A stretch of DNA of 64,000 nt, taken from the sequence record OQ990039; one strand, given 5' to 3'. Of the stretch, positions 29,419 through 52,220 are shown one piece after another; the stretch's first letter is position 1, and each line of letters opens with the position of its first letter. Under the pieces are notes generated by a model. The model made no database searches and was not told the DNA's origin. It was given only the letters and a program-made list of their open reading frames with translations. Source of the stretch: Escherichia phage SUT_E420. A program made the translations under genes and the position numbers.

Positions 29419-29424
29419 ATTATT

Positions 29425-30270: not shown

Positions 30271-30282
30271 ATATAAATTGTT

Positions 30283-30562: not shown

Positions 30563-30567
30563 ATGTT

Positions 30568-30913: not shown

Positions 30914-30931
30914 CTGCGTTTTTCTTGAAAT

Positions 30932-31277: not shown

Positions 31278-31283
31278 ATTGTT

Positions 31284-31359
31284 TGGTCAGTGCGGCAGGA
31301 CTCGAACCTGCGACCCGAAGCATCCAAGGCTCCCACGCTACCAACTGCGCTACGCACTG
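31284..31359 (-). tRNA. tRNA-Pro (anticodon TGG)
   Basis: Perfect acceptor CAGTGCG/CGCACTG, anticodon loop CTTGGAT, T-arm GCAGG-TTCGAGT-CCTGC. Confidence 0.75.
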
Positions 31360-31368
31360 TTAATTCTT

Positions 31369-31566
31369 TTATTGTGGAGGAATATTAATAATTCGTCCGT
31401 CTACACAATAAACGGTACTAGGAATTGTACTATATATGTAGAAATTCTTTATATTACTCTCTCCGCCACAGAAATTTTTAGCAAATTCATACTCTTTATT
31501 AATGGTTGAGTCAAGTTTAAAACAACCAGTAAGTAGGAATACAGACAGCAGTAAAACTTTTTTCAT
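31369..31566 (-). CDS. small lipoprotein
   Basis: 65 aa; signal peptide MKKVLLLSVFLLTGC with lipobox LTGC. Confidence 0.55.
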   Translation of the reverse strand: MKKVLLLSVFLLTGCFKLDSTINKEYEFAKNFCGGESNIKNFYIYSTIPSTVYCVDGRIINIPPQ

Positions 31567-31598
31567 TTTGCTTTCCTTCTCAACACTTTATAAGGTAT

Positions 31599-31627
31599 AT
31601 TATACAGAGAATTAAGCATAATAGCAA
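31599..31627 (-). promoter_or_regulatory. T5-early-type promoter (-35 TTGCTA, -10 TATAAT)
   Basis: 17-bp spacer; drives lipoprotein gene and downstream tRNAs. Confidence 0.6.
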
Positions 31628-32019
31628 ATGAATTTTTAATAAATTTACTTATTGTGTAGGCCACCTGGAGGCTACCAACCCCACGGCTGACAAAGAAGTT
31701 TGCGAGACCTCTCTTAAGTGCCAGAATAGACCCGCCGATCTATCGGAACCTACATAATAAGTAAACTTTATAGTGTCATTCTAGACAGGACTCGAACCTG
31801 TTATCACTTGTGCGGACTTACGAGAACCATTCTTTCACTCGAATCGAACGAGCTTCTGCCCTCGCCAAGCTGGTTTCCCCATCAACCACGCTAGAATGTT
31901 TGATTGTTTTCAGTGCAAGAGTCCGAGTCTTGGACACGACCGCTTCGCAAGTACATAGGCAGCTTATCATGAGTCAGCACTTCCGAATTGCTAGCTCCGT
32001 GTTCTGCACTGAAATTTTA

Positions 32020-32367
32020 TTAGTTTAACCGTAAAGTATTATCTACTTCACCCTTAATTGTTCGGCATTCTTCTGGGATTGCTGGTGTAGCCTTATATTC
32101 CCACCATTCAGAACCGTCGTATTCACCACGTTCTAACCAAGTTCCATCAGTAAACCACACGTTACCATAAAGCAATTGCCCACCGAAACCAGAATCATAT
32201 TTAAAGTCTAGATTATTTAGAAAATCTTCAATATCTTTTTCTGTATAACCTACGGGTAACACCCAAACTTCTTTGTCCCCATAATAACCGAATTCTATCT
32301 TAATACACTTAACTTCAGAATTAATATTCTTTAAGGCAAGTAACAATTCTTCTTTAGCATTAATCAT
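32020..32367 (-). CDS. hypothetical protein
   Basis: 115-aa ORF. Confidence 0.5.
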   Translation of the reverse strand: MINAKEELLLALKNINSEVKCIKIEFGYYGDKEVWVLPVGYTEKDIEDFLNNLDFKYDSGFGGQLLYGNVWFTDGTWLERGEYDGSEWWEYKATPAIPEECRTIKGEVDNTLRLN

Positions 32368-32393
32368 AGCATATTTCTCGTACTAGTTTAATT

Positions 32394-32470
32394 TGGCGCG
32401 ACCGATGGGATTTGAACCCACATTCCCTCCCGTGACAGGGGAGTACCATTACCAAGCCAGCCCCGGTCGC
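32394..32470 (-). tRNA. tRNA-Asp (anticodon GTC)
   Basis: Perfect acceptor GCGACCG/CGGTCGC, anticodon stem CTCCC/GGGAG with loop CTGTCAC, CCA encoded. Confidence 0.8.
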
Positions 32471-32479
32471 ATAATTCAT

Positions 32480-32665
32480 TTACTCAGCTTTGAGTTTTTC
32501 AATAGCTGCATTAAGTTCTTTAAGAAACTTTTTTCGTACATTAAGACGGTTGAGACTTACTAGTATATCATGTTTAAGTTCTTCGATGTATTTCTTCTCA
32601 ACTTCAATATTGTTGATAGTGCTATCACGATGAACTTCTAGCTGTGCAATTACATTCTTGGACAT
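32480..32665 (-). CDS. hypothetical coiled-coil protein
   Basis: 61-aa ORF. Confidence 0.4.
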   Translation of the reverse strand: MSKNVIAQLEVHRDSTINNIEVEKKYIEELKHDILVSLNRLNVRKKFLKELNAAIEKLKAE

Positions 32666-32767
32666 GCTTGTTTCCTCAGTTATTAATGAAAATGGTATCT
32701 GTGACTGAATTCGATGTCAGCAATGATAGCTGGTTGGCTACCGGTTTACTTAACTCTACACAGAATT

Positions 32768-32850
32768 TGGCGGGCCGTGTAGGATTCGAACCTACGTTGT
32801 CTTTCGACATGGATTAACAGTCCACCGCCAAACCGCTTGGCTAACGACCC
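32768..32850 (-). tRNA. tRNA-Asn (anticodon GTT), 80 nt with 13-nt variable region
   Basis: Acceptor GGGTCGT/ACGGCCC, D-stem GCCA/TGGC, anticodon loop CTGTTAA, T-arm GTAGG-TTCGAAT-CCTAC. Confidence 0.65.
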
Positions 32851-33002
32851 TAAATTTATATTGCTGACTAGGATTTTCACCTAGACGGAGTTAGCACCGT
32901 AGCGTGTAGCGGCATACCTCTCCAAACCGTGCCTCATCTTTCAATTACGGAGACAGTGTTCCTACGCGTGCCTGAATTGATTTAACAACTCTTTCAGCAA
33001 AT

Positions 33003-33078
33003 TGGACGACCGCATGAGATTTGAACTCACATAAAAAGGATTTGCAATCCTTCGCCTAAGCCATTCAGCCAACGGTCG
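33003..33078 (-). tRNA. tRNA-Cys (anticodon GCA)
   Basis: Acceptor CGACCGT/GCGGTCG, anticodon stem AAGGA/TCCTT with loop TTGCAAA, CCA encoded. Confidence 0.75.
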
Positions 33079-33126
33079 ATTTATCTTGTTCTGTCATGTT
33101 GCTTCTCCAGTTCAATTTATGTAATT

Positions 33127-33155
33127 ATTATACAGAACTTTTGGAAACTAAGCAA
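33127..33155 (-). promoter_or_regulatory. T5-early-type promoter (-35 TTGCTT, -10 TATAAT)
   Basis: 17-bp spacer; immediately upstream of tRNA-Cys. Confidence 0.6.
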
Positions 33156-33420
33156 CTACATTTTTTAAAAATTTGATGCCTTTCTTTTTCTTCTTATATT
33201 TCCACGTTAAGGGATTCTGTCGATTATGAACGCTTGAGATCTTTGTCTCGTCAAAGTTCTTCAATATCATGTAATCACAGGATAATTGTTCTAATGGAAT
33301 GTGATCACCGTCAAAAGCGTATACATAAGGCTGTTGACTAGCACGATAATGATAGACTTTGTTAATTCTACGTTTCAGCAACTTATCCGCGCAGTAAATA
33401 AAGAAGTTTTCAGGATGCAT
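33148..33420 (-). CDS. hypothetical protein
   Basis: ORF 33148-33435 trimmed to ATG at 33420 with GAGGGAG ribosome-binding site; C-terminus overlaps promoter. Confidence 0.45.
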   Translation of the reverse strand: MHPENFFIYCADKLLKRRINKVYHYRASQQPYVYAFDGDHIPLEQLSCDYMILKNFDETKISSVHNRQNPLTWKYKKKKKGIKFLKNVVA

Positions 33421-33437
33421 CAGCAGCTCCCTCAATT

Positions 33438-33512
33438 TGGTGCACCCTGTTCGTATCGAACGAACCTCTCAAGCTCTTCAGGCAAGCGCTAATCCATCTC
33501 AGCTAAAGGTGC
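33438..33512 (-). tRNA. tRNA, probable Phe (anticodon GAA)
   Basis: Acceptor GCACCTT/AGGGTGC, T-arm GTTCG-TTCGATA-CGAAC; anticodon loop CTGAAGA if stem tolerates two mismatches. Confidence 0.5.
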
Positions 33513-33518
33513 AAATTT

Positions 33519-33595
33519 TGGCAAACCTACTAGGACTCGAACCTAGACCGTACGGTTTTGGAGACCGACATGCTGTCCAGTAACACTCTAGGAAT
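33519..33595 (-). tRNA. tRNA-Trp (anticodon CCA)
   Basis: Anticodon stem CGGT/ACCG with loop CTCCAAA; perfect T-arm CTAGG-TTCGAGT-CCTAG; acceptor has two U-U mismatches. Confidence 0.55.
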
Positions 33596-33603
33596 GCAGG
33601 AAT

Positions 33604-33680
33604 TGGCGTCCTGTGCGGGGATCGAACCCGCAAATCCTACCTTGAAAGGGTAGTGACTTTACCAGTTTGTCTAACAGGAC
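33604..33680 (-). tRNA. tRNA-Glu (anticodon TTC)
   Basis: Perfect acceptor GTCCTGT/ACAGGAC, anticodon stem CTACC/GGTAG with loop CTTTCAA, T-arm GCGGG-TTCGATC-CCCGC. Confidence 0.8.
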
Positions 33681-33687
33681 TTAAATT

Positions 33688-33778
33688 TGGTGTTGGATGA
33701 TGGAGTCGAACCACCCGAGACCCTTCCGAGTCGGCAGATTTACAGTCTGCTTCGCTACCTCTACGATACTAATCCAAC
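33688..33778 (-). tRNA. tRNA-Tyr (anticodon GTA), class II
   Basis: 88 nt; perfect acceptor GTTGGAT/ATCCAAC, anticodon stem GCAGA/TCTGC with loop CTGTAAA, long variable arm. Confidence 0.8.
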
Positions 33779-33842
33779 ATATTTAAAAGTATTCAAATAC
33801 TAGTTTAAACACTTTTAGATATGTTTCCAAATTAGATAACTA

Positions 33843-33870
33843 TTATATCAAGTTTTATGGCACTGAGCAA
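33843..33870 (-). promoter_or_regulatory. candidate promoter (-35 TTGCTC, 16 bp, -10 TATAAT) upstream of tRNA-Tyr
   Basis: Overlaps hairpin CACTGAGCAAG/CTTGCTCAGTG that follows the upstream gene. Confidence 0.45.
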
Positions 33871-33906
33871 GTCAAATTTTAAAGAACTTGCTCAGTGCTG
33901 TATTAG

Positions 33907-34182
33907 TTAGTCGAACTTAGGAGCGACAGTTAAGGAGAATGGAAGTTCGAAAACTTCTTCGCCCTCATCACTAACAGTAATTACACGACCTTTAAGTTCA
34001 GACATTGAAATATCAATATCAGCTTTTGCATCTGGAGCCATGCCAGCTTCAATACATTTAGCTTTAACTTCCGGCAGAAGTTCTACATCGTAGAAATAAA
34101 GCCATTCAATCTCACCTTCCCAGCCTTCCCAGGATTTACAGATTGCACTTTCAATACCAGTTGCTATAACACGATTTTGCAT
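33907..34182 (-). CDS. hypothetical protein
   Basis: 91-aa ORF. Confidence 0.5.
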   Translation of the reverse strand: MQNRVIATGIESAICKSWEGWEGEIEWLYFYDVELLPEVKAKCIEAGMAPDAKADIDISMSELKGRVITVSDEGEEVFELPFSLTVAPKFD

Positions 34183-34212
34183 TCGTTAACTCCTTCATCA
34201 ATTTATATAACT

Positions 34213-34242
34213 ATTATACCAGAAATTTAAAGCAAAAGGCAA
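34213..34242 (-). promoter_or_regulatory. T5-early-type promoter (-35 TTGCCT, 18 bp, -10 TATAAT)
   Basis: Conserved leader TCATCAATTTATATAA on plus strand. Confidence 0.5.
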
Positions 34243-34272
34243 GTACATTTTTAAAAATTCTGTTTGGAGGAG

Positions 34273-34479
34273 CTAAACTCCAGATTCTTCAGCTAAGTCT
34301 AGGCTAATAAGAGATATAGCCATAATTGCTGCTCCGTGTTCTCTTTCTCCTGTCTCTTTAGCTAGGGTTATAATATCAAGAAATTGCTTATGAAAGTCTG
34401 CAACCTCTTGAGTCATACCTGCCTCAGCAATCATGCCTTTAAGCATGAAACGTTGTGCGGTAATTTCGGGATTAGCCAT
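34273..34479 (-). CDS. hypothetical protein
   Basis: 68-aa ORF. Confidence 0.45.
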   Translation of the reverse strand: MANPEITAQRFMLKGMIAEAGMTQEVADFHKQFLDIITLAKETGEREHGAAIMAISLISLDLAEESGV

Positions 34480-34654
34480 GTTGTTTCTCCAGTTTCATGT
34501 TTAATAGTCTACAAATAAAATCAATGTCTTCATCTGTGCCTAGATCTCTATCTTCAAGAGTTGCCTTGAAGTTTTTCGTCAATTCCATGAGGATAACTTC
34601 TCTAGAACGACGTGTTGGCGGAGGTGGATGTCTATACATCTTATTTCCTTAAGT

Positions 34655-34731
34655 TGGTAGGGGTGGTGGGATTCGAACCCACAAAACCTGAATTTTAAGT
34701 CCAGTACCTATACCAATTCGATTACACCCCC
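34655..34731 (-). tRNA. tRNA, anticodon TAA (Leu-type anticodon on a 74-nt class I body)
   Basis: Acceptor GGGGGTG/CACCCCT, anticodon stem CTGGA/TTCAG with loop CTTAAAA, T-arm GTGGG-TTCGAAT-CCCAC. Confidence 0.55.
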
Positions 34732-34832
34732 ATGTAATCAGTTTATTAGTTGATACATATTATAGCCTAGTGAAAATCCTACTACTAGTCCCACAAACCA
34801 ACCAATATAATAATCTTTTAGTTTCACAGGTA

Positions 34833-35018
34833 TTATCCTCGTTCAATATCTAGGGAAACACCGCAGTTAGGATTAATACCTGTACCGTTGCAATTTGAAC
34901 AAATCCAGATATTGCAAAAAGTATCTCCTGCTTCTGCATCAGAACTTTCACCAATTCCCCTACACTCAGGGCAGGCACATTCTTCTAGCTCTTGCTTGAG
35001 TTCTTGAAACTTGGACAT
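34833..35018 (-). CDS. Cys-rich small protein (zinc-binding-like)
   Basis: 61 aa; CACPECRG and CSNCNG motifs. Confidence 0.5.
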   Translation of the reverse strand: MSKFQELKQELEECACPECRGIGESSDAEAGDTFCNIWICSNCNGTGINPNCGVSLDIERG

Positions 35019-35027
35019 ATAGTCTCC

Positions 35028-35216
35028 TTAGTCAATTACTTTTGAGGCTTCAAGGGAGTCGATATAGTATACGTTTTCTACCATAATCATATAATCTGCC
35101 ACTTTATCCATAGCTTGGGCCTCAGAGGTAGCTCTGGCTAACCTATATCCTTTTTTATATTCATCCGGGTATTCTCTATCTTGAATAAATACAACATAAA
35201 CTATGTATAATTCCAC
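35028..35216 (-). CDS. hypothetical protein
   Basis: ORF 35028-35363 trimmed: N-terminal part overlaps two tRNA genes; GTG start after AGGGG ribosome-binding site. Confidence 0.4.
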   Translation of the reverse strand: MELYIVYVVFIQDREYPDEYKKGYRLARATSEAQAMDKVADYMIMVENVYYIDSLEASKVID

Positions 35217-35236
35217 TTGTAATCCCCTAATTAAGT

Positions 35237-35314
35237 TGGTGGCTCCCCGAGGATTCGAACCTACGTACCTTCCGGTTATGAGCCGGGTGCTCATACCATA
35301 TGAGCTTGAGAACC
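35237..35314 (-). tRNA. tRNA, anticodon CAT (Met or Ile2)
   Basis: Acceptor GGTTCTC/GGGAGCC with G-U pairs, D-stem GCTC/GAGC, anticodon loop CTCATAA. Confidence 0.55.
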
Positions 35315-35320
35315 AGAATT

Positions 35321-35409
35321 TGGCGGAAGAAGTGGGAATCGAACCCACAAGGCTATATTTCAAACCGACAGATTAGCAATCTGCTGCAATACCGTTATGC
35401 TATTCTTCC
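35321..35409 (-). tRNA. tRNA-Ser (anticodon GCT), class II
   Basis: 86 nt; perfect acceptor GGAAGAA/TTCTTCC, anticodon stem GCAGA/TCTGT with loop TTGCTAA, T-arm GTGGG-TTCGATT-CCCAC. Confidence 0.75.
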
Positions 35410-35430
35410 GAATTTATAAGATATATTATA

Positions 35431-35949
35431 TTAGAAATTTAGCTTCATAGCAAGAAAATTTTTCAAGTTTTCGGTAGACATCTCATCCACATCTACGGGA
35501 GAAACAAAGCCGTTTAATTTTCTAGCAAATTTTTCACCCGCAGGATCGTTGTCTCCGACAGCTACCAATTTAAAAGGTAATAATTTCAGTTGCTTTAATA
35601 ACGCTTTTCCTGGAGAAGAACCTAACATTGCCAGGGCTGGATAACCAGCGTTATGTAGCGCAACTGCCTTAAATACAGATTCAGCGATCAATACTACTTT
35701 TTCATCTCCATTGAGAGTTTCTAGTCCCCATACACACTGGGTAGTAGAATAAGTAAAATATTTAGCTTCAAAGGGACACTTACCATGACCTTTTGGAGCA
35801 GAAGGATTATACGTCTGATAGCCTCGCAACATCCCGGAGAAGTCATACAACGGGACTGTTAGCCATCCTTCCGGACTTAACCAGCAATGATATTTATCTG
35901 TATCAAATCCTCTGGATAAGAGGTGCTGTGTTAGCTCATCAACATTCAT
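35431..35949 (-). CDS. Toprim-domain protein
   Basis: ORF 35431-36000 trimmed to MNVDEL start with GAGAGG ribosome-binding site; VVLIAESVFKAVAL and GDNDPAG resemble the Toprim E and DxD motifs. Confidence 0.55.
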   Translation of the reverse strand: MNVDELTQHLLSRGFDTDKYHCWLSPEGWLTVPLYDFSGMLRGYQTYNPSAPKGHGKCPFEAKYFTYSTTQCVWGLETLNGDEKVVLIAESVFKAVALHNAGYPALAMLGSSPGKALLKQLKLLPFKLVAVGDNDPAGEKFARKLNGFVSPVDVDEMSTENLKNFLAMKLNF

Positions 35950-35979
35950 ATTTGGTTCCTCTCTCAAATTTATAGATAT

Positions 35980-36008
35980 ATTATACAGAGAATTTAGCAT
36001 TCAAGCAA
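35980..36008 (-). promoter_or_regulatory. T5-early-type promoter (-35 TTGCTT, -10 TATAAT)
   Basis: 17-bp spacer, conserved leader. Confidence 0.6.
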
Positions 36009-36124
36009 TCAAATTTTTTAACTTTTTAGAGGAAAATCATAGGGCACTTAAGGGTAGCAGATAAGTGGGGAGGACCAAAATTTGTGACCCCACTAAAAAT
36101 CCGGGGGCAATTTTTAAAGACCCC

Positions 36125-36153
36125 TTGACATTTTCGCTGGGGTAGTGTAAAGT
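36125..36153 (+). promoter_or_regulatory. sigma70-type promoter (-35 TTGACA, 17 bp, -10 TAAAGT)
   Basis: Consensus -35, starts the only plus-strand operon inside the minus-strand block. Confidence 0.55.
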
Positions 36154-36215
36154 ATATGTTATGGATGAGTGATCAAAGAGACACACATTTTCTATATACT
36201 AGGAGGTGTCAAAAT

Positions 36216-37205
36216 ATGACAGAAGAAGTAGCTAAGAGTCCTGAGACCGTCGCTAGCGTTGCAGCAGAACTGCACCGTCACGAGGAATCAGATAAGAAAA
36301 AGTGGGAGAAGGTCAGAGCCTACGAAGAAAAACATCGTGAACACGATGATGAAGAAGAAGATGACGATGATGAACATTGTCATAAATATGGAAAACATAA
36401 AATGCAAGAACCAGTAAACGTATTCACTAGTGGCTTCCCTGGCCTACTGGGTGGTTACCCAGCAAACGCAGGTGCTTTCGGTGGTGAAGGTATGGGACTA
36501 TTCGGAGCTATCCTAATCGGTGCTCTATTAACCGGCGGATTCGGTGGTTTCGGTGGATTCGGTGGACGTGGTGTAGTTGGTGAAGGTACCGCAGTTGATG
36601 CAGTACTTCAGAACCAAGATACCGCTAGTATTCTAGCAGCTATCAACACTACTCGTACAGAGGCTAACCAGGGTACTGGAGCTGTTTTAAGCGCAGTTAA
36701 CAATGGTTTTAGCCAGACAACCCAAAACCAGAGCCGTGATACTCAGTCTGTACTAACTACGATCTACGGTACAGGTGCTAATCTGTCTAATCAGATCTGC
36801 CAGGAAACTCGCAACGTTATTCAGGGTCAGTTCGATCTTTCTCGCCAGATTGATCAATCTTTCGCAGCTAACCAGATAGCTCGTGCACAAGATAAGTTTG
36901 ATTCTGCACAGATCGCTTTCCAGCAGACTTTACAAACTAATAACCAGTTTGCCGCTGTTCAGGCTCAGATGTGTGCTAACCAGAACTCTCTGGAACGTCA
37001 GATCGCTGAATGTTGCTGTGAACTTCAGACTGCGATCGCTGGTGTAACTACTGCGCGTATCCAGGATGAGTTAGACGCATGTCGCCTACGTGAAGCAATC
37101 GCTGCGGGTAGCGGTGCTAACGGTCAGGTAATTAATCAAATCGCTTTAAGTCTTGGTGCTATCACTCAGACTCTGGCTGGTCTGCAGGCTAAACTGCCGG
37201 CTTAA
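36216..37205 (+). CDS. glycine-zipper membrane protein with acidic N-terminus and Q/N/T-rich C-terminal half
   Basis: ORF 36156-37205 trimmed to MTEEVAK start after AGGAGG; DDEEEDDDDEH run, GxxxG-rich hydrophobic GMGLFGAILIGALLTGGFGGFGGFGG, low-complexity tail, C-terminal CCC. Confidence 0.55.
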   Translation: MTEEVAKSPETVASVAAELHRHEESDKKKWEKVRAYEEKHREHDDEEEDDDDEHCHKYGKHKMQEPVNVFTSGFPGLLGGYPANAGAFGGEGMGLFGAILIGALLTGGFGGFGGFGGRGVVGEGTAVDAVLQNQDTASILAAINTTRTEANQGTGAVLSAVNNGFSQTTQNQSRDTQSVLTTIYGTGANLSNQICQETRNVIQGQFDLSRQIDQSFAANQIARAQDKFDSAQIAFQQTLQTNNQFAAVQAQMCANQNSLERQIAECCCELQTAIAGVTTARIQDELDACRLREAIAAGSGANGQVINQIALSLGAITQTLAGLQAKLPA

Positions 37206-37226
37206 TATTAAGGGGAGGAGCCCATT

Positions 37227-37643
37227 ATGAGTAAATATGGTTTTGTAAATAACGGACTTAATCAAAGTATGGGCTCCCAGCAGCCCATTCCGGGTCTGGA
37301 TAACCCCTACTTACAACAGTTGCAACAGCGTTTAGCAGAAGCGCAACAGATGCAGCAACAACTCCAGCAAAACCCTGGAAGTGTGAGTCCTATGCAAATG
37401 ATGCAGCAAATGAGCGGGCAGTCGCAAATGCCTCAACAAATGCAGCAACAGGTGCCTCAGCAGCAAGTTCAGCAACAAACCCAACAACCGCAGGTTTCTG
37501 CGGAAGGACAGGCAGTACTAGCCCTTTTCGAAGACTTCGCAAAGACAGAGGATGGGAAACAGCTTGTATCACTTATGGGTAAGTTTAATAGCTTCTGCCA
37601 AAGCCAAGTTGCAAAAGCTCAAAATGGGGGTAGTAACTCCTAA
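37227..37643 (+). CDS. glutamine-rich low-complexity protein
   Basis: 138 aa, about one third Gln (QQLQQ, QQMQQQ repeats); GGAGG ribosome-binding site. Confidence 0.5.
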   Translation: MSKYGFVNNGLNQSMGSQQPIPGLDNPYLQQLQQRLAEAQQMQQQLQQNPGSVSPMQMMQQMSGQSQMPQQMQQQVPQQQVQQQTQQPQVSAEGQAVLALFEDFAKTEDGKQLVSLMGKFNSFCQSQVAKAQNGGSNS

Positions 37644-37652
37644 GGAGGAAAT

Positions 37653-37847
37653 ATGTGTTGCAGAAAATCTGTTTCGTGCTGCCCAGTGCCTGTAGCACGT
37701 TGTTGCTCTCCAGCAATGTTTACGCAAATACCGGCGTTCAATCCCTTTGCCTTTAAGCCTACTCTTATCCTGCCCCCTAGAGTAGATTTTCAGTCAAGAT
37801 TGGCCTCCCGTATGGGTGGTTGCTGTACACCGAGAGTATGGTTCTAA
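37653..37847 (+). CDS. Cys-rich small protein
   Basis: 64 aa with MCC, SCC, RCC and GGCC Cys pairs; AGGAGG ribosome-binding site. Confidence 0.45.
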   Translation: MCCRKSVSCCPVPVARCCSPAMFTQIPAFNPFAFKPTLILPPRVDFQSRLASRMGGCCTPRVWF

Positions 37848-37859
37848 ACCAAAAACAAA

Positions 37860-37894
37860 AGCCCCTGCCGAAAGGTAAGGGGCTTTTTCTTTTG
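37860..37894 (+). terminator. rho-independent terminator of plus-strand cassette
   Basis: Stem AGCCCCT/AGGGGCT followed by TTTTTCTTTTG; second copy after the N-gap is an artefact. Confidence 0.8.
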
Positions 37895-38071
37895 CCTTAA
37901 ATACAGAAAANNNNNNNNNNNNNNNNNNNNNNNNNNNNNNNNNNNNNNNNNNNNNNNNNNNNNNNNNNNNNNNNNNNNNNNNNNNNNNNNNNNNNNNNNN
38001 NNNNNNNNNNGAGTATGGTTCTAAACCAAAAACAAAAGCCCCTGCCGAAAGGTAAGGGGCTTTTTCTTTTG

Positions 38072-38115
38072 CCTTAAATACAGAAAAGCCCGCGCTCTCG
38101 TAGGAAACGCGGGCT
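38072..38115 (-). terminator. rho-independent terminator after SPFH gene
   Basis: Stem AGCCCGCG/CGCGGGCT, then TTTTCTGTATTT on the minus strand; convergent with the plus-strand terminator. Confidence 0.7.
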
Positions 38116-38139
38116 TGGTTCGAAGATTACGTGTAACTA

Positions 38140-39087
38140 TTACTTGTTACGCATATCCATGATCATTTGACCATCGTAGCCAGTACCTACCACAGTCTGA
38201 GGTACACCACCTTGATACTTCTGAGCACGGATCATTTCAACTTCCAGTTGTTTCCAACGAATCATTTCAGGAGTAATGGTACGTTGCAATGCGGCGTTAG
38301 CTTCAGCTTCTTTCTTAGCTGCGTACAGTTTAGCATCTGCGTCACGTTCATTAGCAATAGCTTGGTTGTTACGAGCTTCACGATCTGCTTCTGCTTGTTT
38401 AACTTTTTGCTGTGCTTCCTGTTCAACGCGAGCAAGTTCAGCTTTCGCAGCATTAACTTGCTCTTCACGAACTTTGGTATTCTGTACCTGTTCCATGATT
38501 ACTGGCGGCAAGGTAATATCCTGAAGGAATACCTGCTTAACTGTGTAACCATATGGGCGCGCATACTCTTCAACTTCCTGTTGAATTGCAGTTTGCAATT
38601 GAGCCTGAATTTTAGCATCAAATAAATCTTGTGCTTTAGGTACAGACTTACCAAACTCACGAATAGTAGACAGTAATTTTTCAGTTACATACTTGTCTAG
38701 TGCCTGATCCTGAGTACCTGCGTTAATACGGTTAATCGGTGCTTTAGAACCATCAAACTGCAACATAACAGTCAGGTCAACAGTGGATTTAAACTTATCC
38801 TGGCTAGGAACCTGAAGTTTATCTAATTTTACAGCAATATCTTTTGTACTAAAAGTATCGAAAGATGCAAACGGGTTTACAAGATGGAAGCCCGGCAATA
38901 CTGGATTAGGGTCTACTTTACCCAGGAATGTTTGGGTTTTAACCGTACCATCAGAAACAATAGTATATGAATTAAAAGCTAGGATTAAACCTGCTAAACC
39001 AACTACAGCACCAATACCCCAACGTTTAATAGTACGAATTACTTTCTGCTCAGAAGTCAGTTCTTTCATATTTTTAGTAGCAAACAT
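38140..39087 (-). CDS. SPFH/band-7 (stomatin/prohibitin/HflK-C-like) membrane protein
   Basis: 315 aa; N-terminal TM WGIGAVVGLAGLILAF, band-7-like core, long Ala/Gln/Glu-rich coiled coil. Confidence 0.65.
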   Translation of the reverse strand: MFATKNMKELTSEQKVIRTIKRWGIGAVVGLAGLILAFNSYTIVSDGTVKTQTFLGKVDPNPVLPGFHLVNPFASFDTFSTKDIAVKLDKLQVPSQDKFKSTVDLTVMLQFDGSKAPINRINAGTQDQALDKYVTEKLLSTIREFGKSVPKAQDLFDAKIQAQLQTAIQQEVEEYARPYGYTVKQVFLQDITLPPVIMEQVQNTKVREEQVNAAKAELARVEQEAQQKVKQAEADREARNNQAIANERDADAKLYAAKKEAEANAALQRTITPEMIRWKQLEVEMIRAQKYQGGVPQTVVGTGYDGQMIMDMRNK

Positions 39088-39121
39088 ATATTTCCTTTGT
39101 TTTAGTTACAGTTAATAAAAT

Positions 39122-39196
39122 TGGCCGAGGTGACAGGATTCGAACCTGCATAAAGGAATTTAGAAGACTCCTGCCTCTCCCTTAGACTACACCCCG
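39122..39196 (-). tRNA. tRNA-Arg (anticodon TCT)
   Basis: Acceptor CGGGGTG/CACCTCG, anticodon stem GGAGT/ATTCC with loop CTTCTAA, T-arm GCAGG-TTCGAAT-CCTGT, CCA encoded. Confidence 0.7.
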
Positions 39197-46610: not shown

Positions 46611-47465
46611 TTACACAGTGAATGGATATGCAATAGCAGGATGGTGTTCGTAACCACGAACAGTAAAATCATCCTTATTTACCCAGGTCAATACATCCTC
46701 CAGAGTTCGGATATTTGGATTGATTTCTAGAGTAGGAGGTGCAAAGGGTTCACGATCAAATTGCTTATGCTCCATCAAAACATTATACTGATCCTCATAG
46801 ATATGAAGATTGATAATCTTCTGGCGTGCAATCCCTGGTTTAAGGCCTGTAATCTGTGCCATTAATGCTAGAAGCGTATAGCACTGAACCATGTTAAATA
46901 CTTGGCCTAACAGGAAGTCATTAGATCTCTGGAAAGAGTTCAGATATAATGTATCTCCCAAAATAGAGAACTGATGAGTATGCATACATGGACGTAAGCA
47001 ACCCTTTGAGAACTCCCCCGGATTCCAGAAGGTTAGAATTTCCCCACGATCATCAATGCCCTTTTTCAGATTATGATAAATCTTGGCTAGTTGGTCAAAC
47101 ATAAGACCATCGGAATTAGTCCACTGACGTCCTTGAACACCATAGACTCGTCCCATATCATCCTCACCTTTACGGTATGGATTGTCTAGCCAAGCTAAGT
47201 TTTCATTTGCATTAGCATTCCATGTGTTAACACCAATAGCGCGGAATTGTGCTGCTGAATCATACCCACGTAGATACCCAATCATTTCCATTATTGCTTG
47301 TTTTGCAAACGCCTTACGAGTAGTAATAAGTGGGAATTCACCTGCACCTACGTTAAAAGTAAAATCTGCATCAATAATGGTGAGGCAACGAACCCCTGTT
47401 CTGGGATTCGTTACCCACTGACCTTCTGATAGAATACGTTTTCCAACTTCTATATACTGATCCAT
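46611..47465 (-). CDS. thyA: thymidylate synthase
   Basis: 284 aa; full-length ThyA-like sequence including catalytic-Cys region (CMHTHQF). Confidence 0.85.
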
Positions 47466-47998
47466 TAATAAGTAACCAATTCCTGTACAAATCGCAGGCT
47501 GTTATCACTGTTTGCGCCAGTTGCGTAAACTAAACGAGTAGATTCATAGTTGTAATCTAGAATCGTATTATCCAGATATACATCTGCCTCTAGTTTTTGA
47601 TTACTAAAGATTGTGGATACAAAAGCACTTTCAATATGACCATATTGATACATTTCTAGAAGAAGGTTAGCACCACCTAGAACTACTGTCTGCTGATCTT
47701 TCAGAAATGTAGGTAAAGCATCCCCAATCTTAGAAATTGGGGTGTAAATATCATGTGTAATATCATCTGGCAGTGGACGATCAGCACGAATAAATAGGTC
47801 AGAAGCTCCAATCATACGTTCTCTAACGGCGTATGGAAGAGCTAAATAAGTACCCGCACCAATGATGATGTTATCTGGATTCAACACGTCCAGTTGAGAA
47901 TAGAAAGCATCTAGTTCTTCTTTGAAGGAACCCCATGGAAGTTTACCGCGGAGGCCGAACTCCCCATTCGGCCCAACTGCATACATTGCTGTAATCAT
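47465..47998 (-). CDS. frd: dihydrofolate reductase
   Basis: 177 aa; [15 protein letters not shown]... start, adjacent to thyA with overlapping stop/start. Confidence 0.75.
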
Positions 47999-49140
47999 AA
48001 GAAATCTCCAAATTCATTACCCAGATCTTTCAGAGTATCAGTAGAGGTCTCAGTTACCTGACCTACACGGTAGGCTGCACCAATCTGGATTTCTTGTGGA
48101 GCAGGCTGTAGAGAAGTAGTATCCAACCAGTTCATAATCCACGGAATAGGGTTTTTGGTGATTACTGGTAAATGACTAGGCCATTCTACACCGATGTGCA
48201 TAAATGCATTACGTCCCACAAAATACAGATATTCTTCTAGAAGTTCTGCATTCAAGCCAATCAGACTACGACCTTTGAAAATGAAATGACCCCATTCAAT
48301 TTCAGTTTTCAGAGTTTTCAGGAGCTGTGCTGGTGCTTTAGCCACTGCTTCATCTACCAGATCTTTGTCAAATTGCTGAAACATAATCTGGATGATTGCT
48401 TTGGACATCTGAGTGTGCAGAGCTTCATCTTTAGCGATTAATTGCAGATTTTTAGCAATACCTTGCAGAATATCGTTCTCTGCTAATGCAAAGGTACATG
48501 CAAAGGATGCGTAAAACTGCATTGCTTCCAGACCATAGATCGCAAAGTAAGCGTCTAATAGTTTAGCCTGAGTTTCACGTTTAACTTCAGGGAACTCAGT
48601 TTCTGGATATGTATTGTCGCCACGATGATCGCGTACTGCGATGAAATACTGACCTAACTGGTACAGTTCATCGAATAGTTCAACAGAATCAGCGATGCGC
48701 GCGAATGCTTCTTGGTTTTTGGTTACAGAATCAATAAATTCTGCTGGATCAGTCAGCACATTACGAATAATATTGCTATAAGCACGACTATGCAGGTCTT
48801 CAAAATAGCTCCACTGTTTGAGCATACCTTCCAATTCTGGACGACTTACAAGCGGCATAATAGCTGCTTCAGGGGCACGACTAATAAAGGAATCAGTTTG
48901 AGTTTGCCATGCTAAGTTCAGGAGTGTAATTTCCTGAATTTCTCGTGGGAGATTAGGCCATTGTTTCTTATCTGCTTCCAGACTGATTTCAGTTTCAGTC
49001 CAAAATTGAGAGCGCTGCAGAAGTGCCAGACGTTCTAGTTCTGGATGTGCTACACGTACATAATCTGCGATACCGAGAGAATCTCCCAGGAAAAGGTCGG
49101 CGTTAGTATGATCCCAATTCAGGTTTAGTAAAGTAGTCAT
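47995..49140 (-). CDS. nrdB: ribonucleotide reductase small subunit
   Basis: 381 aa; di-iron/tyrosyl-radical region (EAMQFYASFACTFALAE) and conserved C-terminus. Confidence 0.85.
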   Translation of the reverse strand: MTTLLNLNWDHTNADLFLGDSLGIADYVRVAHPELERLALLQRSQFWTETEISLEADKKQWPNLPREIQEITLLNLAWQTQTDSFISRAPEAAIMPLVSRPELEGMLKQWSYFEDLHSRAYSNIIRNVLTDPAEFIDSVTKNQEAFARIADSVELFDELYQLGQYFIAVRDHRGDNTYPETEFPEVKRETQAKLLDAYFAIYGLEAMQFYASFACTFALAENDILQGIAKNLQLIAKDEALHTQMSKAIIQIMFQQFDKDLVDEAVAKAPAQLLKTLKTEIEWGHFIFKGRSLIGLNAELLEEYLYFVGRNAFMHIGVEWPSHLPVITKNPIPWIMNWLDTTSLQPAPQEIQIGAAYRVGQVTETSTDTLKDLGNEFGDFL

Positions 49141-49171
49141 TGATTTTCCTCTTTCTCACTATTTCAGGAAT

Positions 49172-49200
49172 ATTATAGCAAATCTGGTAGCGATTAGCAA
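49172..49200 (-). promoter_or_regulatory. T5-early-type promoter for nrdB (-35 TTGCTA, -10 TATAAT)
   Basis: 17-bp spacer. Confidence 0.55.
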
Positions 49201-49206
49201 GTAAAA

Positions 49207-49689
49207 TTATAAACTATCAAGCTCCAATAGTTTAGCATCGCGCCATTCTATAGCATCCTCTAATTCTTTGAATGTTTTAGTATGTTTTACACCTTTTCTA
49301 GCAATCTGGACTTGGTAAGATCCGCTTGCTTTTTGGTGTATATTCTTAATACCTAACTTATTGTCTTTGTGCGCTCCGACATTCTTTCCATTGTTAAATC
49401 TATCAGATGCTAATAAATTAATTGCTCTATTATCATGACGTATTCTGTTGTCATGGTCTACTTCTTTTGGAATGTATCCATGAGTGATATAGAATGCTAG
49501 GATATGTGCATAGTATTTTTTACCCCTTACTTGCATTACTATATACCCTGAGCATTTTTCTAGAGAACCTGCTTCTTTGCCAGCAAACTTAGTATTAAAG
49601 GATTTATCTTCTCTAGGTTTGTGGGTAAAGATTCCAGTTTCTGGATTATAGTCAAATAACCCAGCTATTTCTTTATATTTTTCTTCCAT
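49207..49689 (-). CDS. HNH homing endonuclease
   Basis: 160 aa; HNH motif VDHDNRIRHDNRAINL; inserted between nrdA and nrdB. Confidence 0.7.
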   Translation of the reverse strand: MEEKYKEIAGLFDYNPETGIFTHKPREDKSFNTKFAGKEAGSLEKCSGYIVMQVRGKKYYAHILAFYITHGYIPKEVDHDNRIRHDNRAINLLASDRFNNGKNVGAHKDNKLGIKNIHQKASGSYQVQIARKGVKHTKTFKELEDAIEWRDAKLLELDSL

Positions 49690-49721
49690 AATCTAAAATT
49701 ACAGCTATGATAGGCCTAATA

Positions 49722-49739
49722 AAGGGGCTTTCGCCCCTT
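49722..49739 (-). terminator. hairpin, probable terminator after nrdA
   Basis: Stem AAGGGGC/GCCCCTT with 4-nt loop, 5 bp downstream of nrdA stop. Confidence 0.5.
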
Positions 49740-49744
49740 ATTTA

Positions 49745-52078
49745 TTATAATTGACAACCACCGGATGCACATCCAGCAGCAGCTTCTTCACCTGCACCTC
49801 CACCATTTGCAGTATTGAAGTTTGCATAGTAGAAAGTTTTCCACCCATACTTAACAGCAGTCATGAAATCACGAACTACTACTGGGCCAGGAATGATTTC
49901 ATTCTCAAACTTGGTGTAGTCATAGTACATATTCGTACTGATAGACTGACTGAAGAATTTCTGCATAGTTGCTACCCACTTGATCCACTCGATACGATCT
50001 ACATCATAAGCCAGTTTATAGCTCATTAACGTTTCCCAATCGGTTGCACCTGGAGCAATTGCAATTACTTTATTTACTGCACTACCCTTGATAGATACAA
50101 TCTTACGAGGTGGTTCGATAGAGTTAGTAACACCTAACAGAACAGAAGAACTTTCTCCCGGCATCTGAGCAGTCAGAACAGAGTTACGCATACCATATTT
50201 CAGAATATCTGCACGCAGAGACTCCCAATCCATTTCTAGACCTACGGATACCAGTTCATCAACAGTTTTCTTGTACGTGTCGATTACCAGAATTCCTTTA
50301 GATGGTTTAGTACGATCAAACCACTCACATGCACCCTGTTCTTTAGCTAGGCGTACAGAGGCTTTATGCAGGAAGTAAGACAGTTTTTCAGCCTCACGGT
50401 GAATCCAGTTACGAGCTTCAATACCTTCATAAGCCAGACCTTCTGCTGCCATTGCACCTGCTGCGTTCATCAGGCCAATACCAACATTACGACGTTTCTT
50501 AGCCGTATATTCCATAGTTGGGAACGGATAATCCTGAATTTCAATAATTGTATCAACGAATTTCAGAAGGATGTAGCAAGTTTTTTCCCACTCAGCCAGA
50601 GATTCCATGCGTCCAAGTACAACACCGCCTAAGTTACACAGAGATACTTCACCAATATCCTCCGGCTTCATTTGATCAAGTTGTTCTTTTGTTTTATACA
50701 GTTCCGTGATATGATGGAACGGGCGTGTAGGCTGAGTAATTTCAACACAAAGGTTTGTCATACGGATCGGATCAAGGAAGTTACCGTGACGATTAGATTC
50801 CCCGATGTGATGAGCATACATACGTCCTGTTTCCATTCGGATACGTAGCCAAGTATCTAGGATTTCTTTTGCAGAGACTTTAGGAGCTGCTGGAACTGTT
50901 TTTCCTTCGTGGTCGATCTTTGTAAGAGATGCCACACGTTTCTCCGCTGCCACGTAGATTTCTTCAAATTTAGCCTCGTCATCACTATAAAACGCTTCAT
51001 GAACTTCTGGAGCATAGAAGTATGACATTAGCGTAATATCTTCGTTTTTAAGATAACGTTTTAACAAAAGATTGTTAAAGCTCAGAGAATAGTCCATCTT
51101 ATCGATTTTATTCTCATCTGTAGCACGTTGTTGCTTAACCTGCATCAATTGAATGATTTCAGGGTCGAAGTACGTATAAGACACTGTGGCAGAACCACCA
51201 CGAGTTTGCTGAGTATTGGCCTTTACTGAGCGGTCAATGTGTCGATAATATGGCAGTTTTCCGGAATGCGGGAATGCCCCATTTCGCACCGGATCAGCAA
51301 TTGATCGGCTTTCAAGATGATACCCGATTCCCGCTCTGGCTGCGACCATTTTGAAGACGATGTGCTCGGCGGTGTCGATTGAATCCAACGTGTCAGTGGA
51401 ATCCACGAGGCAGCAACTAGCAAATCCACGGTCACTAGAGCGCAGACCAACCAGTGGCGGCGTAGGAATGTTGATTTTGTGGAGTGACATTGCGTTGTAG
51501 AGGTCGATTGCATCTAGAATTGTCCAGTTAGGTTGAGATAACATCGCCATTGCCATACCCATGTAGGCAAACTGCGGAGTTTCATAGATTTCACCAGTGG
51601 CTATGTTACGACGGGAATACTTATCAAAGAACTGTTTCAGCCCACCACTAGTAAAAAGACGGTCACGATCATGGTCGATAACCTGATTCAGAGCTTCAAA
51701 TTGCTCATCGGTAATCCATGCACTCATGTCTTCCCATGCACCTACGCTAACCATATGGTCATGGAAGAAGCGCAGAGAAGGTGGTTCGAAGGAATCATAG
51801 AGGCGTTTACGCATTTGCGCAAGACGTAATTCCTTTGCTGGCACATCATATGCTGGATTATCTTTGATAAGACTTTCAGCAGCTTTAATTAATGCATCCA
51901 TCAGAGTGTCGGAATCTACAACCCCTTTAGGCAGAGTTTTTTGAGCAGCCATAGTAATGGCTGACCAACTTACATCAACTGTTTTGCAACCATACTCCGC
52001 CCAACCATTGAGTTTTTCAGGAGCAAAGTCTTCTACAGTACCGTCACGTTTAATTACTTTTTCAATGCGATGGCTCAT
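49745..52078 (-). CDS. nrdA: ribonucleotide reductase large subunit
   Basis: ORF 49745-52183 trimmed to MSHRIEKVIKRDGT (ATP-cone start) after AAGGAA ribosome-binding site; CNLG and catalytic regions present. Confidence 0.85.
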   Translation of the reverse strand: MSHRIEKVIKRDGTVEDFAPEKLNGWAEYGCKTVDVSWSAITMAAQKTLPKGVVDSDTLMDALIKAAESLIKDNPAYDVPAKELRLAQMRKRLYDSFEPPSLRFFHDHMVSVGAWEDMSAWITDEQFEALNQVIDHDRDRLFTSGGLKQFFDKYSRRNIATGEIYETPQFAYMGMAMAMLSQPNWTILDAIDLYNAMSLHKINIPTPPLVGLRSSDRGFASCCLVDSTDTLDSIDTAEHIVFKMVAARAGIGYHLESRSIADPVRNGAFPHSGKLPYYRHIDRSVKANTQQTRGGSATVSYTYFDPEIIQLMQVKQQRATDENKIDKMDYSLSFNNLLLKRYLKNEDITLMSYFYAPEVHEAFYSDDEAKFEEIYVAAEKRVASLTKIDHEGKTVPAAPKVSAKEILDTWLRIRMETGRMYAHHIGESNRHGNFLDPIRMTNLCVEITQPTRPFHHITELYKTKEQLDQMKPEDIGEVSLCNLGGVVLGRMESLAEWEKTCYILLKFVDTIIEIQDYPFPTMEYTAKKRRNVGIGLMNAAGAMAAEGLAYEGIEARNWIHREAEKLSYFLHKASVRLAKEQGACEWFDRTKPSKGILVIDTYKKTVDELVSVGLEMDWESLRADILKYGMRNSVLTAQMPGESSSVLLGVTNSIEPPRKIVSIKGSAVNKVIAIAPGATDWETLMSYKLAYDVDRIEWIKWVATMQKFFSQSISTNMYYDYTKFENEIIPGPVVVRDFMTAVKYGWKTFYYANFNTANGGGAGEEAAAGCASGGCQL

Positions 52079-52220
52079 TTGGCTTTCCTTTTTATAGTTA
52101 TCAGGATTTAAGGAATATTCTACTTTATTATCGGTCATTAGGCAAATAAAATTTTCTGATAGAAAAGGCCCGAGTATTTTCATACCCAGGCCCTGTATAT
52201 TACCAGTCTAGCTTTTTAGC

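What the first reader, a model, noticed from the sequence alone, without database searches (positions are those of the whole stretch)
49207..49689. HNH homing endonuclease inserted between nrdA and nrdB
A free-standing HNH endonuclease gene sits exactly between the two ribonucleotide reductase subunit genes, flanked by a terminator-like hairpin. This is a classic position for a mobile homing endonuclease and marks a likely point of variation among relatives.
Basis: partly seen in the sequence, partly recalled or inferred. Interest (0 to 1): 0.45.

Follow-up and report, generated by a model that had tools for sequence, protein, structure and literature searches.

The report
Homing endonuclease gene between nrdA/nrdB
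A small selfish nuclease gene sits between the two ribonucleotide reductase genes of this T5-like phage, present in about a tenth of related phages; it is real but ordinary, and GenBank records of relatives already annotate it as a homing endonuclease.

Summary
Confirmed and ordinary. The window is a T5-like phage, 100% identical here to Escherichia phages SUT_E1520 and SUT_E520. ORF 49207-49689 (-), 160 aa, lies between nrdA (49745-52183) and nrdB (47995-49140). It has an I-HmuI-type HNH_3 nuclease domain with the catalytic residues intact (D78, H79, N91, N100). A C-terminal AP2-type DNA-binding domain shows up with a family profile but not in a direct Pfam scan. The gene and a GC hairpin (49722-49739) form a 532-nt cassette (49209-49740). 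This cassette replaces the 34-nt native nrdA terminator found in relatives with an empty site. About 47 of roughly 440 T5-like records carry it, in both Tequintavirus and Epseptimavirus. HEG identity disagrees with flank identity: 92% against 81-84% for phiR2-01, and 76% against 89-92% for phC17. dN/dS is 0.02-0.16. Three other HNH-AP2 lineages (T5 hegH, AKFV33 orf096 and an EH3 type, 31-44% identical) occupy the same spacer at a second insertion point, after the nrdB promoter. About 44% of relatives are occupied overall. The position mirrors T4 mobE, but I found no detectable sequence homology to it. Cleavage site, nicking and expression route are inferred, not shown. Relatives' GenBank records annotate this gene as a homing endonuclease, and the nrdA-nrdB site was discussed in 2012 (PMC3326045).

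The parts
49207..49689 (-). Free-standing homing endonuclease gene (160 aa). Residues about 1-45 form a conserved N-terminal 'YNPETG' beta region, about 45-105 the HNH_3 nuclease, and about 110-160 an AP2-type DNA-binding domain.
   Evidence: ORF. Pfam HNH_3 E=1.6e-8. PHROG 99 E=1e-49. Profile against PDB: I-HmuI and AP2/ERF. AF2 model pLDDT 89.7. Foldseek top hit 1u3e, probability 0.99.
49390..49458 (-). HNH catalytic core DHDNRIRHDNRAINLLASDRFNN. D78-H79 is the metal ligand and general base, N91 is the structural Asn, and N100 is a metal ligand.
   Evidence: Translation. Alignment to I-HmuI D74-H75/N87/N96. D78, H79, N91 and L92 are invariant and N100 at least 90% conserved across 43 family members.
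49210..49362 (-). AP2-type DNA-binding domain (three-stranded sheet plus helix, residues about 110-160), the presumed target-recognition module.
   Evidence: Profile hits to WRI1, TEM1 and ERF1 AP2 domains, E=1.7e-9 to 6e-3. Predicted strands 117-119, 125-131 and 134-140 and helix 143-159. Many family members carry PF00847. The domain is almost invariant among alleles: at most one substitution per allele across residues 110-160.
49712..49739 (-). Cassette-borne hairpin (GGGGC-GAAA-GCCCC) with an interrupted U tract. It replaces the native nrdA intrinsic terminator and lies upstream of the HEG.
   Evidence: Empty sites instead have GGAGAUC-UUCG-GGUCUCC-UUUUUCUUU, and the phC17 allele has a different, stronger terminator at the same place.
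49209..49740 (-). Extent of the insertion relative to empty-site relatives: 532 nt replacing 34 nt. The left junction follows nrdA-stop+TAAA and the right junction falls at the HEG stop codon before AATTTTAC-TTGCTA.
   Evidence: Alignments with NG_A1 and Sw2 (empty) and EPS7 and phC17 (occupied).
49172..49200 (-). nrdB promoter (TTGCTA, 17 nt, TATAAT, TG-extended). It is left intact immediately downstream of the HEG stop.
   Evidence: It matches the promoter annotated in AKFV33 and T5 records. The 49141-49206 segment is 100% identical in EPS7 and phC17.
49745..49833 (-). The last ~90 nt of nrdA carry an Epseptimavirus-like allele (3-nt indel plus clustered substitutions) in HEG-bearing Tequintaviruses. 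This is a co-conversion-like tract.
   Evidence: Variable-site table. Beyond 49833 the window matches HEG-less Tequintaviruses again. The HEG-less Epseptimavirus Sw2 shares the indel-region allele.
49745..52183 (-). nrdA, the class Ia RNR large subunit (upstream flank).
47995..49140 (-). nrdB, the class Ia RNR small subunit (downstream flank).

Best explanation
This is a free-standing homing endonuclease gene of the HNH_3 + AP2 family (I-HmuI-like His-Me finger nuclease), carried as a 532-nt cassette of hairpin plus ORF in the nrdA-nrdB spacer of a T5-like phage. Three things are shown. The domain architecture has intact catalytic residues. The insertion is precise and substitutes for the native nrdA terminator. 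The gene is sporadically distributed across two phage genera, with HEG-versus-flank identity incongruence, a short co-conversion-like tract in the nrdA 3' end, and strong purifying selection. The mechanism is inferred. During co-infection with a relative whose spacer is empty, the protein binds through its AP2 domain and nicks or cuts near the nrdA stop/terminator. I-HmuI and T4 MobE both nick. Recombinational repair from the HEG-bearing genome then copies the cassette and a little flanking nrdA sequence into the recipient. The carrier is immune because the insertion removes or splits that sequence. Expression is probably low and depends on read-through of the cassette hairpin from nrdA transcripts. 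No sigma-70-like promoter precedes the ORF and there is no obvious Shine-Dalgarno sequence. T4 mobE is likewise promoterless and terminator-limited.
For: Nuclease and DNA-binding domains.
Presence and absence: 47 of 446 records hold the full region, and 43+4 records hold an orthologue by tblastn. A spread sample of 50 loci gave 28 empty and 5 of this type.
Exact junctions and terminator replacement.
Incongruence: against phiR2-01 the HEG is 91.7% identical while nrdB and nrdA are 81.1% and 84.2%. Against phC17 the HEG is 76.4% while the flanks are 89.4% and 92.4%.
Co-conversion-like tract at 49745-49833.
dN/dS of 0.02-0.16 with dS up to about 1.0, and all 7 alleles examined intact.
No promoter-like site on the minus strand between the hairpin and the ATG.
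Precedent: T4 MobE between nrdA and nrdB is promoterless, terminator-regulated, nicks nrdB of T2 and is inherited at high frequency with co-conversion (PMC2790892).
T5-like phage literature already calls the nrdA-nrdB HNH genes homing endonucleases and lists HEGs as the main source of genome differences (PMC3326045; PMC10644984).
Against: No biochemical or genetic test of this protein exists in what I could search. The cleavage site, nick versus double-strand break, and mobility are all inferred.
The co-conversion tract is short and one-sided. Its indel-region allele also occurs in the HEG-less Epseptimavirus Sw2. It therefore shows donor ancestry rather than a mapped cut site.
The hairpin's U tract is interrupted, so its strength as a terminator is unknown. 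A weak -10-like element (TATCAT here, TATAAT in EPS7) could give some independent transcription.
The Foldseek match to I-HmuI is only E=0.01 with TM 0.4. That is expected for a flexible multi-domain model, but it is weak taken alone.
Strong purifying selection is also compatible with a function that benefits the phage rather than pure selfishness.
Confidence: 0.85

Rival explanations
1. The gene is a domesticated or beneficial nuclease or DNA-binding protein. It would be kept because it helps the phage, for example by excluding co-infecting relatives through cutting their RNR region, or by modulating nrdA-nrdB expression through AP2 binding in the spacer. Its own spread by homing would be secondary.
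For: dN/dS is very low (0.02-0.03 at dS about 0.5), which is unusual for a purely parasitic gene. The AP2 domain is almost invariant among alleles. The cassette supplies a replacement terminator, so operon architecture is preserved.
Against: Only about 10% of relatives carry the gene, and 56% do without any gene at this site. It therefore provides nothing essential. Competitor exclusion is the same molecular mechanism as homing. No evidence for a regulatory role was found.
Confidence: 0.1
2. The gene is ancestral and vertically inherited, and many lineages lost it by deletion. The patchy distribution would then reflect loss, not mobility.
For: The gene sits at exactly the same junctions in every carrier examined. 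This is also what vertical descent would give.
Against: Empty sites are not simple deletions. They hold a different, well-formed terminator that is shared with sites occupied by the T5, AKFV33 and EH3 gene types. HEG and flank identities are incongruent in both directions. The gene occurs in two genera on otherwise divergent backbones. HEG-bearing Tequintaviruses carry an Epseptimavirus-like nrdA 3' end.
Confidence: 0.03
3. The gene is a defunct, decaying endonuclease that persists only by linkage to essential RNR genes, like I-TevIII in T4.
For: Many phage HEGs are inactive. No activity data exist for this one. One relative (SB6) has a 298-nt internal tandem duplication that disrupts the gene.
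Against: All seven alleles examined are full length with no stops. The catalytic residues are conserved, and dN/dS is 0.02-0.16 at substantial dS.
Confidence: 0.02

Closest known systems
Phage T5 HegH (putative H-N-H endonuclease P-TflVIII, T5.095) and its AKFV33 orf096 and EH3-type relatives
   Same: All are HNH_3 + AP2-type free-standing endonuclease genes of 160-175 aa in the same nrdA-nrdB spacer of T5-like phages. They are sporadically present and annotated as homing endonucleases.
   Different: They are only 36-44% identical to the window protein. They are inserted about 60 nt further downstream, after the -10 of the nrdB promoter. There they replace the nrdB 5'UTR and abut or overlap the nrdB start codon. 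They keep the native nrdA terminator. The window type sits upstream of the promoter and replaces the terminator.
Phage T5 HegF (H-N-H endonuclease F-TflVI, T5.046)
   Same: It is the best T5 paralogue, 42% identical over 154 aa with the same architecture. Its name was transferred to this gene in the EPS7 and mar003J3 records.
   Different: It lies at a different locus in T5, next to the spanin genes. It is a paralogue, not an orthologue, so its specificity cannot be assumed.
I-HmuI (PDB 1U3E), the intron-encoded nicking HNH homing endonuclease of Bacillus phage SPO1
   Same: It shares the His-Me finger core with matching D-H...N...N residues. It is the top sequence-profile and Foldseek hit for the nuclease part, and it has an extended multi-domain build.
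   Different: I-HmuI is intron-encoded and uses a helix-turn-helix C-terminal domain (my own knowledge). This protein is free-standing and uses an AP2-type domain. Foldseek reports about 20% identity.
Phage T4 MobE
   Same: It is a free-standing HNH endonuclease gene in the same genomic position, between nrdA and nrdB. It is promoterless, limited by an intrinsic terminator, nicks the RNR gene of a HEG-less relative and is co-converted with its flanks (PMC2790892).
   Different: I found no detectable sequence relationship: BLASTP E=0.87 and hhalign probability 0.1%. MobE matches Pfam HNH (PF01844), not HNH_3, and has no AP2 hit in Pfam. This is convergent use of the same niche in an unrelated phage family.
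IPA-HNH homing endonucleases of ICP1-like phages (Barth et al. 2023, PMC10448857)
   Same: They combine an HNH nuclease with an AP2 domain and cluster next to essential genes, including ribonucleotide reductase.
   Different: They were defined on Vibrio phage ICP1 proteins. Direct homology to this protein was not tested here.

Membership tests
HNH_3 / I-HmuI-like His-Me finger endonucleases (Pfam PF13392) | Sequence match to the family model above the curated threshold | tested here: met
   HNH_3 scored 34.5 bits against a cut-off of 24.8, E=1.6e-8, residues 59-95. PHROG 99 scored E=1e-49.
HNH_3 / I-HmuI-like His-Me finger endonucleases (Pfam PF13392) | Catalytic Asp-His general base/metal ligand, plus the structural Asn and the metal-binding Asn | tested here: met
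   D78-H79, N91 and N100 align with I-HmuI D74-H75, N87 and N96. D78, H79 and N91 are invariant and N100 at least 90% conserved in 43 homologues.
HNH_3 / I-HmuI-like His-Me finger endonucleases (Pfam PF13392) | Beta-beta-alpha metal finger fold | tested here: met
   The AF2 model (pLDDT 89.7) has strands 76-79 and 92-95 followed by helix 97-102. The Foldseek top hit is 1u3e, probability 0.99, E=0.01. This rests on a predicted structure only.
HNH_3 / I-HmuI-like His-Me finger endonucleases (Pfam PF13392) | Metal-dependent DNA nicking or cleavage activity | not testable with these tools
   This requires a biochemical assay.
AP2/ERF-type DNA-binding domain (Pfam PF00847) | Sequence match to AP2 | tested here: inconclusive
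   A direct Pfam scan of the protein or of its C-terminal 51 aa gives no AP2 hit, even at E<=10. A 43-member family profile does hit solved AP2 domains (WRI1 1.7e-9, TEM1 4e-6, ERF1 6e-3) at positions 98-164. Many homologues carry PF00847.
AP2/ERF-type DNA-binding domain (Pfam PF00847) | Three-stranded antiparallel sheet packed on one helix | tested here: met
   The model has strands 117-119, 125-131 and 134-140 and helix 143-159. Foldseek hits the TEM1 AP2 domain at probability 0.89.
Free-standing homing endonuclease gene (functional class) | Sporadic presence or absence at one precise site among close relatives, with conserved flanks | tested here: met
   About 47 of roughly 440 records carry the gene, and the junctions are identical in window, EPS7 and phC17.
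Free-standing homing endonuclease gene (functional class) | Evidence of lateral movement: gene/flank incongruence and co-conversion of flanking markers | tested here: met
   HEG against flank identity is 92% versus 81-84% for phiR2-01 and 76% versus 89-92% for phC17. A foreign-type 90-nt nrdA 3' tract occurs in HEG-bearing Tequintaviruses. This evidence is suggestive, not experimental.
Free-standing homing endonuclease gene (functional class) | Site-specific cleavage of the HEG-less allele and nuclease-dependent super-Mendelian inheritance in mixed infection | not testable with these tools
T4 Mob endonucleases (MobE) | Sequence homology to MobE | tested here: not met
   BLASTP gave E=0.87 and hhalign gave probability 0.1%. 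MobE matches PF01844, not PF13392. Only the position and the likely regulation are analogous.
T5 F-TflVI (HegF) orthologue, as annotated in EPS7 | High identity and the same locus as T5 hegF | tested here: not met
   Identity is 42%. T5 hegF lies at 23245-23742 next to the spanin genes, not at nrdA-nrdB.

The most novel reading that the evidence does not exclude
The 106-nt nrdA-nrdB spacer of T5-like phages may be a contested landing pad shared by two guilds of related HNH-AP2 endonucleases. One guild (this gene) replaces the nrdA terminator and brings its own. The other guild (T5 hegH, AKFV33 and EH3 types) replaces the nrdB 5'UTR and supplies a new ribosome-binding site. The two were not seen together in one genome. 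The very strong purifying selection and the chimeric phC17 allele would then reflect ongoing competition and recombination between endonucleases, or a benefit to the phage in mixed infections, rather than the usual invade-and-decay cycle.
Probability: 0.3. Interest if true: 0.45.

Novelty: already known. Interest (0 to 1): 0.2.

Why it matters
The finding matters little beyond annotation. It correctly flags a mobile, variable point in T5-like genomes that can confuse comparative genomics and mark recombination boundaries. The identical gene in the SUT_E1520 and SUT_E520 records is labelled only 'hypothetical protein' and can now be named. For specialists in homing endonucleases there is modest value in three observations. 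Four related HNH-AP2 lineages use two distinct insertion points in one short spacer. Each substitutes for the regulatory element it destroys. This niche was reached independently of T4 mobE. That makes T5-like phages a convenient natural system for studying competition between endonucleases and AP2-domain target recognition. None of this is unexpected.

Tried and rejected
I tested or considered the following, and each was rejected or led nowhere.
- Paralogues in the window. tblastn with the HEG and with T5 HegA and HegC-HegH found only the gene itself.
- A single-sequence search of PDB gave nothing useful. A family profile was needed.
- A direct Pfam scan for AP2 in the C-terminal 51 aa, and for any domain in the N-terminal 60 aa, gave no hits.
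- Homology to T4 MobE was rejected.
- Orthology to T5 F-TflVI was rejected.
- A hairpin that sequesters the HEG start codon or RBS. Folding the 116-nt leader gave only the GC hairpin in the centroid structure, with z=-1.1, so there is no support for a larger regulatory structure.
- A dedicated sigma-70-type promoter for the HEG. None was found on the minus strand between the hairpin and the ATG.
- The idea that the last two nrdA codons (QL against TI or NL) are HEG-specific immunity changes. QL also occurs in T5 and EH7, which carry other endonuclease types.
- The idea that the enzyme makes the characteristic T5 genome nicks. Most T5-like phages lack this gene, so this is unlikely. That rests on my own reasoning from the distribution.
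- Literature searches found no experimental study of this gene.

Full report
**What is there.** The window region 48600-50300 is 100% identical to Escherichia phages SUT_E1520 and SUT_E520. It is 82-98% identical to many members of Demerecviridae, in the genera Tequintavirus and Epseptimavirus. On the minus strand the gene order is nrdA (49745-52183), a 160-aa ORF (49207-49689), nrdB (47995-49140), frd and thyA.

**The protein.** Pfam assigns HNH_3 at 34.5 bits against a threshold of 24.8. PHROGs assigns phrog_99 'HNH endonuclease' at E=1e-49. A word-indexed search found few close relatives. A profile search found more than 4,000 homologues, many carrying both PF13392 and PF00847 (AP2). I built a 43-sequence alignment of single-module homologues and searched it against PDB sequences.
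- Positions 43-108 hit I-HmuI (1U3E) at E=6e-7.
- Positions 98-164 hit plant AP2/ERF domains at E=1.7e-9.
- In that alignment D78-H79, N91 and N100 correspond to I-HmuI D74-H75, N87 and N96. D78, H79 and N91 are invariant and N100 at least 90% conserved in the family.

AlphaFold2 on this alignment gives a confident model with pLDDT 89.7. It has a beta-beta-alpha element at residues 76-102 and a three-strand-plus-helix C-terminal domain. Foldseek ranks I-HmuI first and AP2 domains next. The architecture is therefore an N-terminal beta region, an HNH nuclease and an AP2 DNA-binding domain. A direct Pfam scan does not detect AP2 in this protein, so that assignment rests on the profile and the predicted fold.

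**Anatomy of the insertion.** I compared the window with relatives whose spacer is empty (NG_A1, Sw2). Read on the minus strand, the native 106-nt spacer has four parts:
- the nrdA stop;
- an intrinsic terminator (GGAGATC-TTCG-GGTCTCC-TTTTTCTTT);
- the nrdB promoter (TTGCTA, 17 nt, TATAAT);
- a 5'UTR with its ribosome-binding site, followed by the nrdB ATG.

In the window, 34 nt containing the native terminator are replaced by 532 nt (49209-49740). This insert consists of a different hairpin (GGGGC-GAAA-GCCCC followed by UUUAUUAGG, 49712-49739) and then the ORF. The ORF's TAA stop runs directly into AATTTTAC-TTGCTA of the nrdB promoter. EPS7 has the same junctions. The divergent phC17 allele has the same junctions but carries a different, stronger terminator hairpin. 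No promoter-like site lies between the hairpin and the ATG on the coding strand, and I see no clear Shine-Dalgarno sequence in the sequence itself. A larger leader structure is not supported.

**Distribution.** Of 446 phage records matching the region, 47 contain the full HEG-bearing version. tblastn finds 43 records at 90% identity or more and 4 at 60-80%, with everything else below 60%. I then searched with the two flanks concatenated and sampled 50 loci evenly down the ranking:

| Spacer state | Loci in sample |
|---|---|
| Empty | 28 |
| This gene type | 5 |
| T5 hegH-sized insert | 11 |
| AKFV33 type | 2 |
| EH3 type | 3 |
| EH7 | 1 |

Representative loci show that these inserts are distinct HNH-AP2 lineages, 31-44% identical to one another and to the window protein. 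tblastn record counts for the other lineages are about 75 for hegH, 36 for AKFV33 and 34 for EH3. I did not check that every one of those matches lies at the nrd locus, and the database holds GenBank/RefSeq duplicates. About 44% of relatives are occupied by some endonuclease and about 10% by this one.

The other three lineages use a second insertion point. They sit immediately after the -10 of the nrdB promoter. They keep the native terminator and promoter, replace the 5'UTR, and abut or overlap the nrdB start codon. No record showed both insertion points occupied: there were 528 places in 526 records.

**Signs of mobility.** The gene occurs on both Tequintavirus backbones (window, E22, NBEco001, FFH1, phC17) and Epseptimavirus backbones (EPS7, SB6, phiR2-01).
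- Against phiR2-01 the HEG is 91.7% identical while nrdB and nrdA are 81.1% and 84.2%.
- Against phC17 the HEG is only 76.4% identical while the flanks are 89-92%.
- In HEG-bearing Tequintaviruses the last ~90 nt of nrdA (49745-49833) carry a 3-nt indel and clustered substitutions. These match Epseptimavirus sequence rather than HEG-less Tequintaviruses. Identity to the latter resumes beyond 49833.
- No such tract appears on the nrdB side. There the promoter/5'UTR is 100% conserved even between genera.

These patterns fit acquisition by gene conversion from an Epseptimavirus-like donor with a short co-converted flank. They do not map a cut site, because at least one HEG-less Epseptimavirus (Sw2) shares the indel-region allele.

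The gene is not decaying. All seven alleles examined are intact, and dN/dS is 0.02-0.16 at dS up to about 1. The phC17 allele differs mainly in its N-terminal half, while residues 76-160 are nearly identical. This suggests recombination within the gene.

**Mechanism.**
- *Shown:* the domain composition, the catalytic residues, the precise cassette, the patchy and incongruent distribution, and the selection.
- *Inferred from I-HmuI and T4 MobE* (PMC2790892; I-HmuI nicking is my own knowledge): the enzyme nicks or cuts the empty allele near the nrdA stop/terminator during co-infection. Repair then copies the cassette across. The carrier is immune because the insertion removes that sequence. Expression comes from read-through of the cassette hairpin from nrdA transcripts.
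- *Considered less likely:* a decaying remnant, pure vertical inheritance with loss, and a mainly phage-beneficial role.

**Comparison with known systems.** Other T5-like HNH genes in the same spacer are paralogous lineages with another insertion point. T5 HegF/F-TflVI, whose name was transferred to this gene in the EPS7 record, is a 42% paralogue at a different locus. T4 MobE occupies the same nrdA-nrdB niche and is likewise promoterless and terminator-limited. It shows no detectable sequence homology and belongs to another Pfam HNH family.

The presence of HNH homing endonucleases between nrdA and nrdB in T5-like phages, and the parallel with mobE, was already pointed out for AKFV33 and T5 (PMC3326045). 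HEGs are recognised as the main source of differences among T5-like genomes (PMC10644984). HNH-AP2 endonucleases next to RNR genes are described for other phages (PMC10448857).

**Verdict.** The feature is a known kind of element that is already annotated in relatives. Interest is low. The only mildly new points are the two insertion points with regulatory-element substitution, the four co-existing lineages, and the strong purifying selection.

Noticed in passing
window 46611-47998 (thyA 46611-47465, frd 47465-47998): The nucleotide-metabolism operon is mosaic. thyA in the window is an EPS7-like allele: 72-94% identity per 100 nt to EPS7, but only about 40-55% to NBEco001, FFH1, NG_A1 and Elw. 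The adjacent frd is Tequintavirus-like (82-100%) and only about 51-58% identical to EPS7. This implies a recombination breakpoint at the thyA/frd junction.
   Followed up: partly
window 49141-49206: The nrdB promoter and 5'UTR are 100% identical to EPS7 and phC17, although the flanking coding DNA is only 89-92% identical. This segment is exactly what the T5 hegH, AKFV33 and EH3 endonuclease types replace or abut. It may be conserved as a regulatory element, as their homing site, or both.
   Followed up: no
L003 (Salmonella phage vB_SenS_SB6) 2320-2915: There is an exact 298-nt tandem duplication (100% identical copies) inside the orthologous endonuclease gene, which splits it into two annotated 'homing endonuclease' ORFs. 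It could be a real rearrangement or an assembly artefact.
   Followed up: partly
window 27669-39196 and the whole window: The window spans the T5-type tRNA cluster, with 21 tRNA genes. It contains no homologue of the T5 endonucleases HegA, C, D, E, F or G, which populate that region in T5. Other endonuclease families, such as T5orf172/GIY-YIG, were not searched.
   Followed up: partly
L010 (Salmonella phage phC17) 4108-4664: This is a divergent allele of the same endonuclease, 78% aa identity. Its N-terminal half, upstream hairpin and neighbouring nrdA and nrdB ends are diverged. Residues 76-160 and the promoter are nearly identical to the window. It looks like a recombinant allele.
   Followed up: partly
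L016/L017 (Salmonella phages EH3, EH7), nrdA-nrdB spacer: A fourth HNH-AP2 endonuclease lineage, about 172 aa with a GTG start, is present in the spacer but unannotated in these two records. About 34 phage records carry it.
   Followed up: partly
window 49207-49689 versus the GenBank records OQ885479 and OQ990040: In the two records identical to the window (SUT_E1520, SUT_E520) no feature under the match carries an endonuclease or nrdB name. They are listed only as 'hypothetical protein' (x2), alongside a named nrdA.
   Followed up: no
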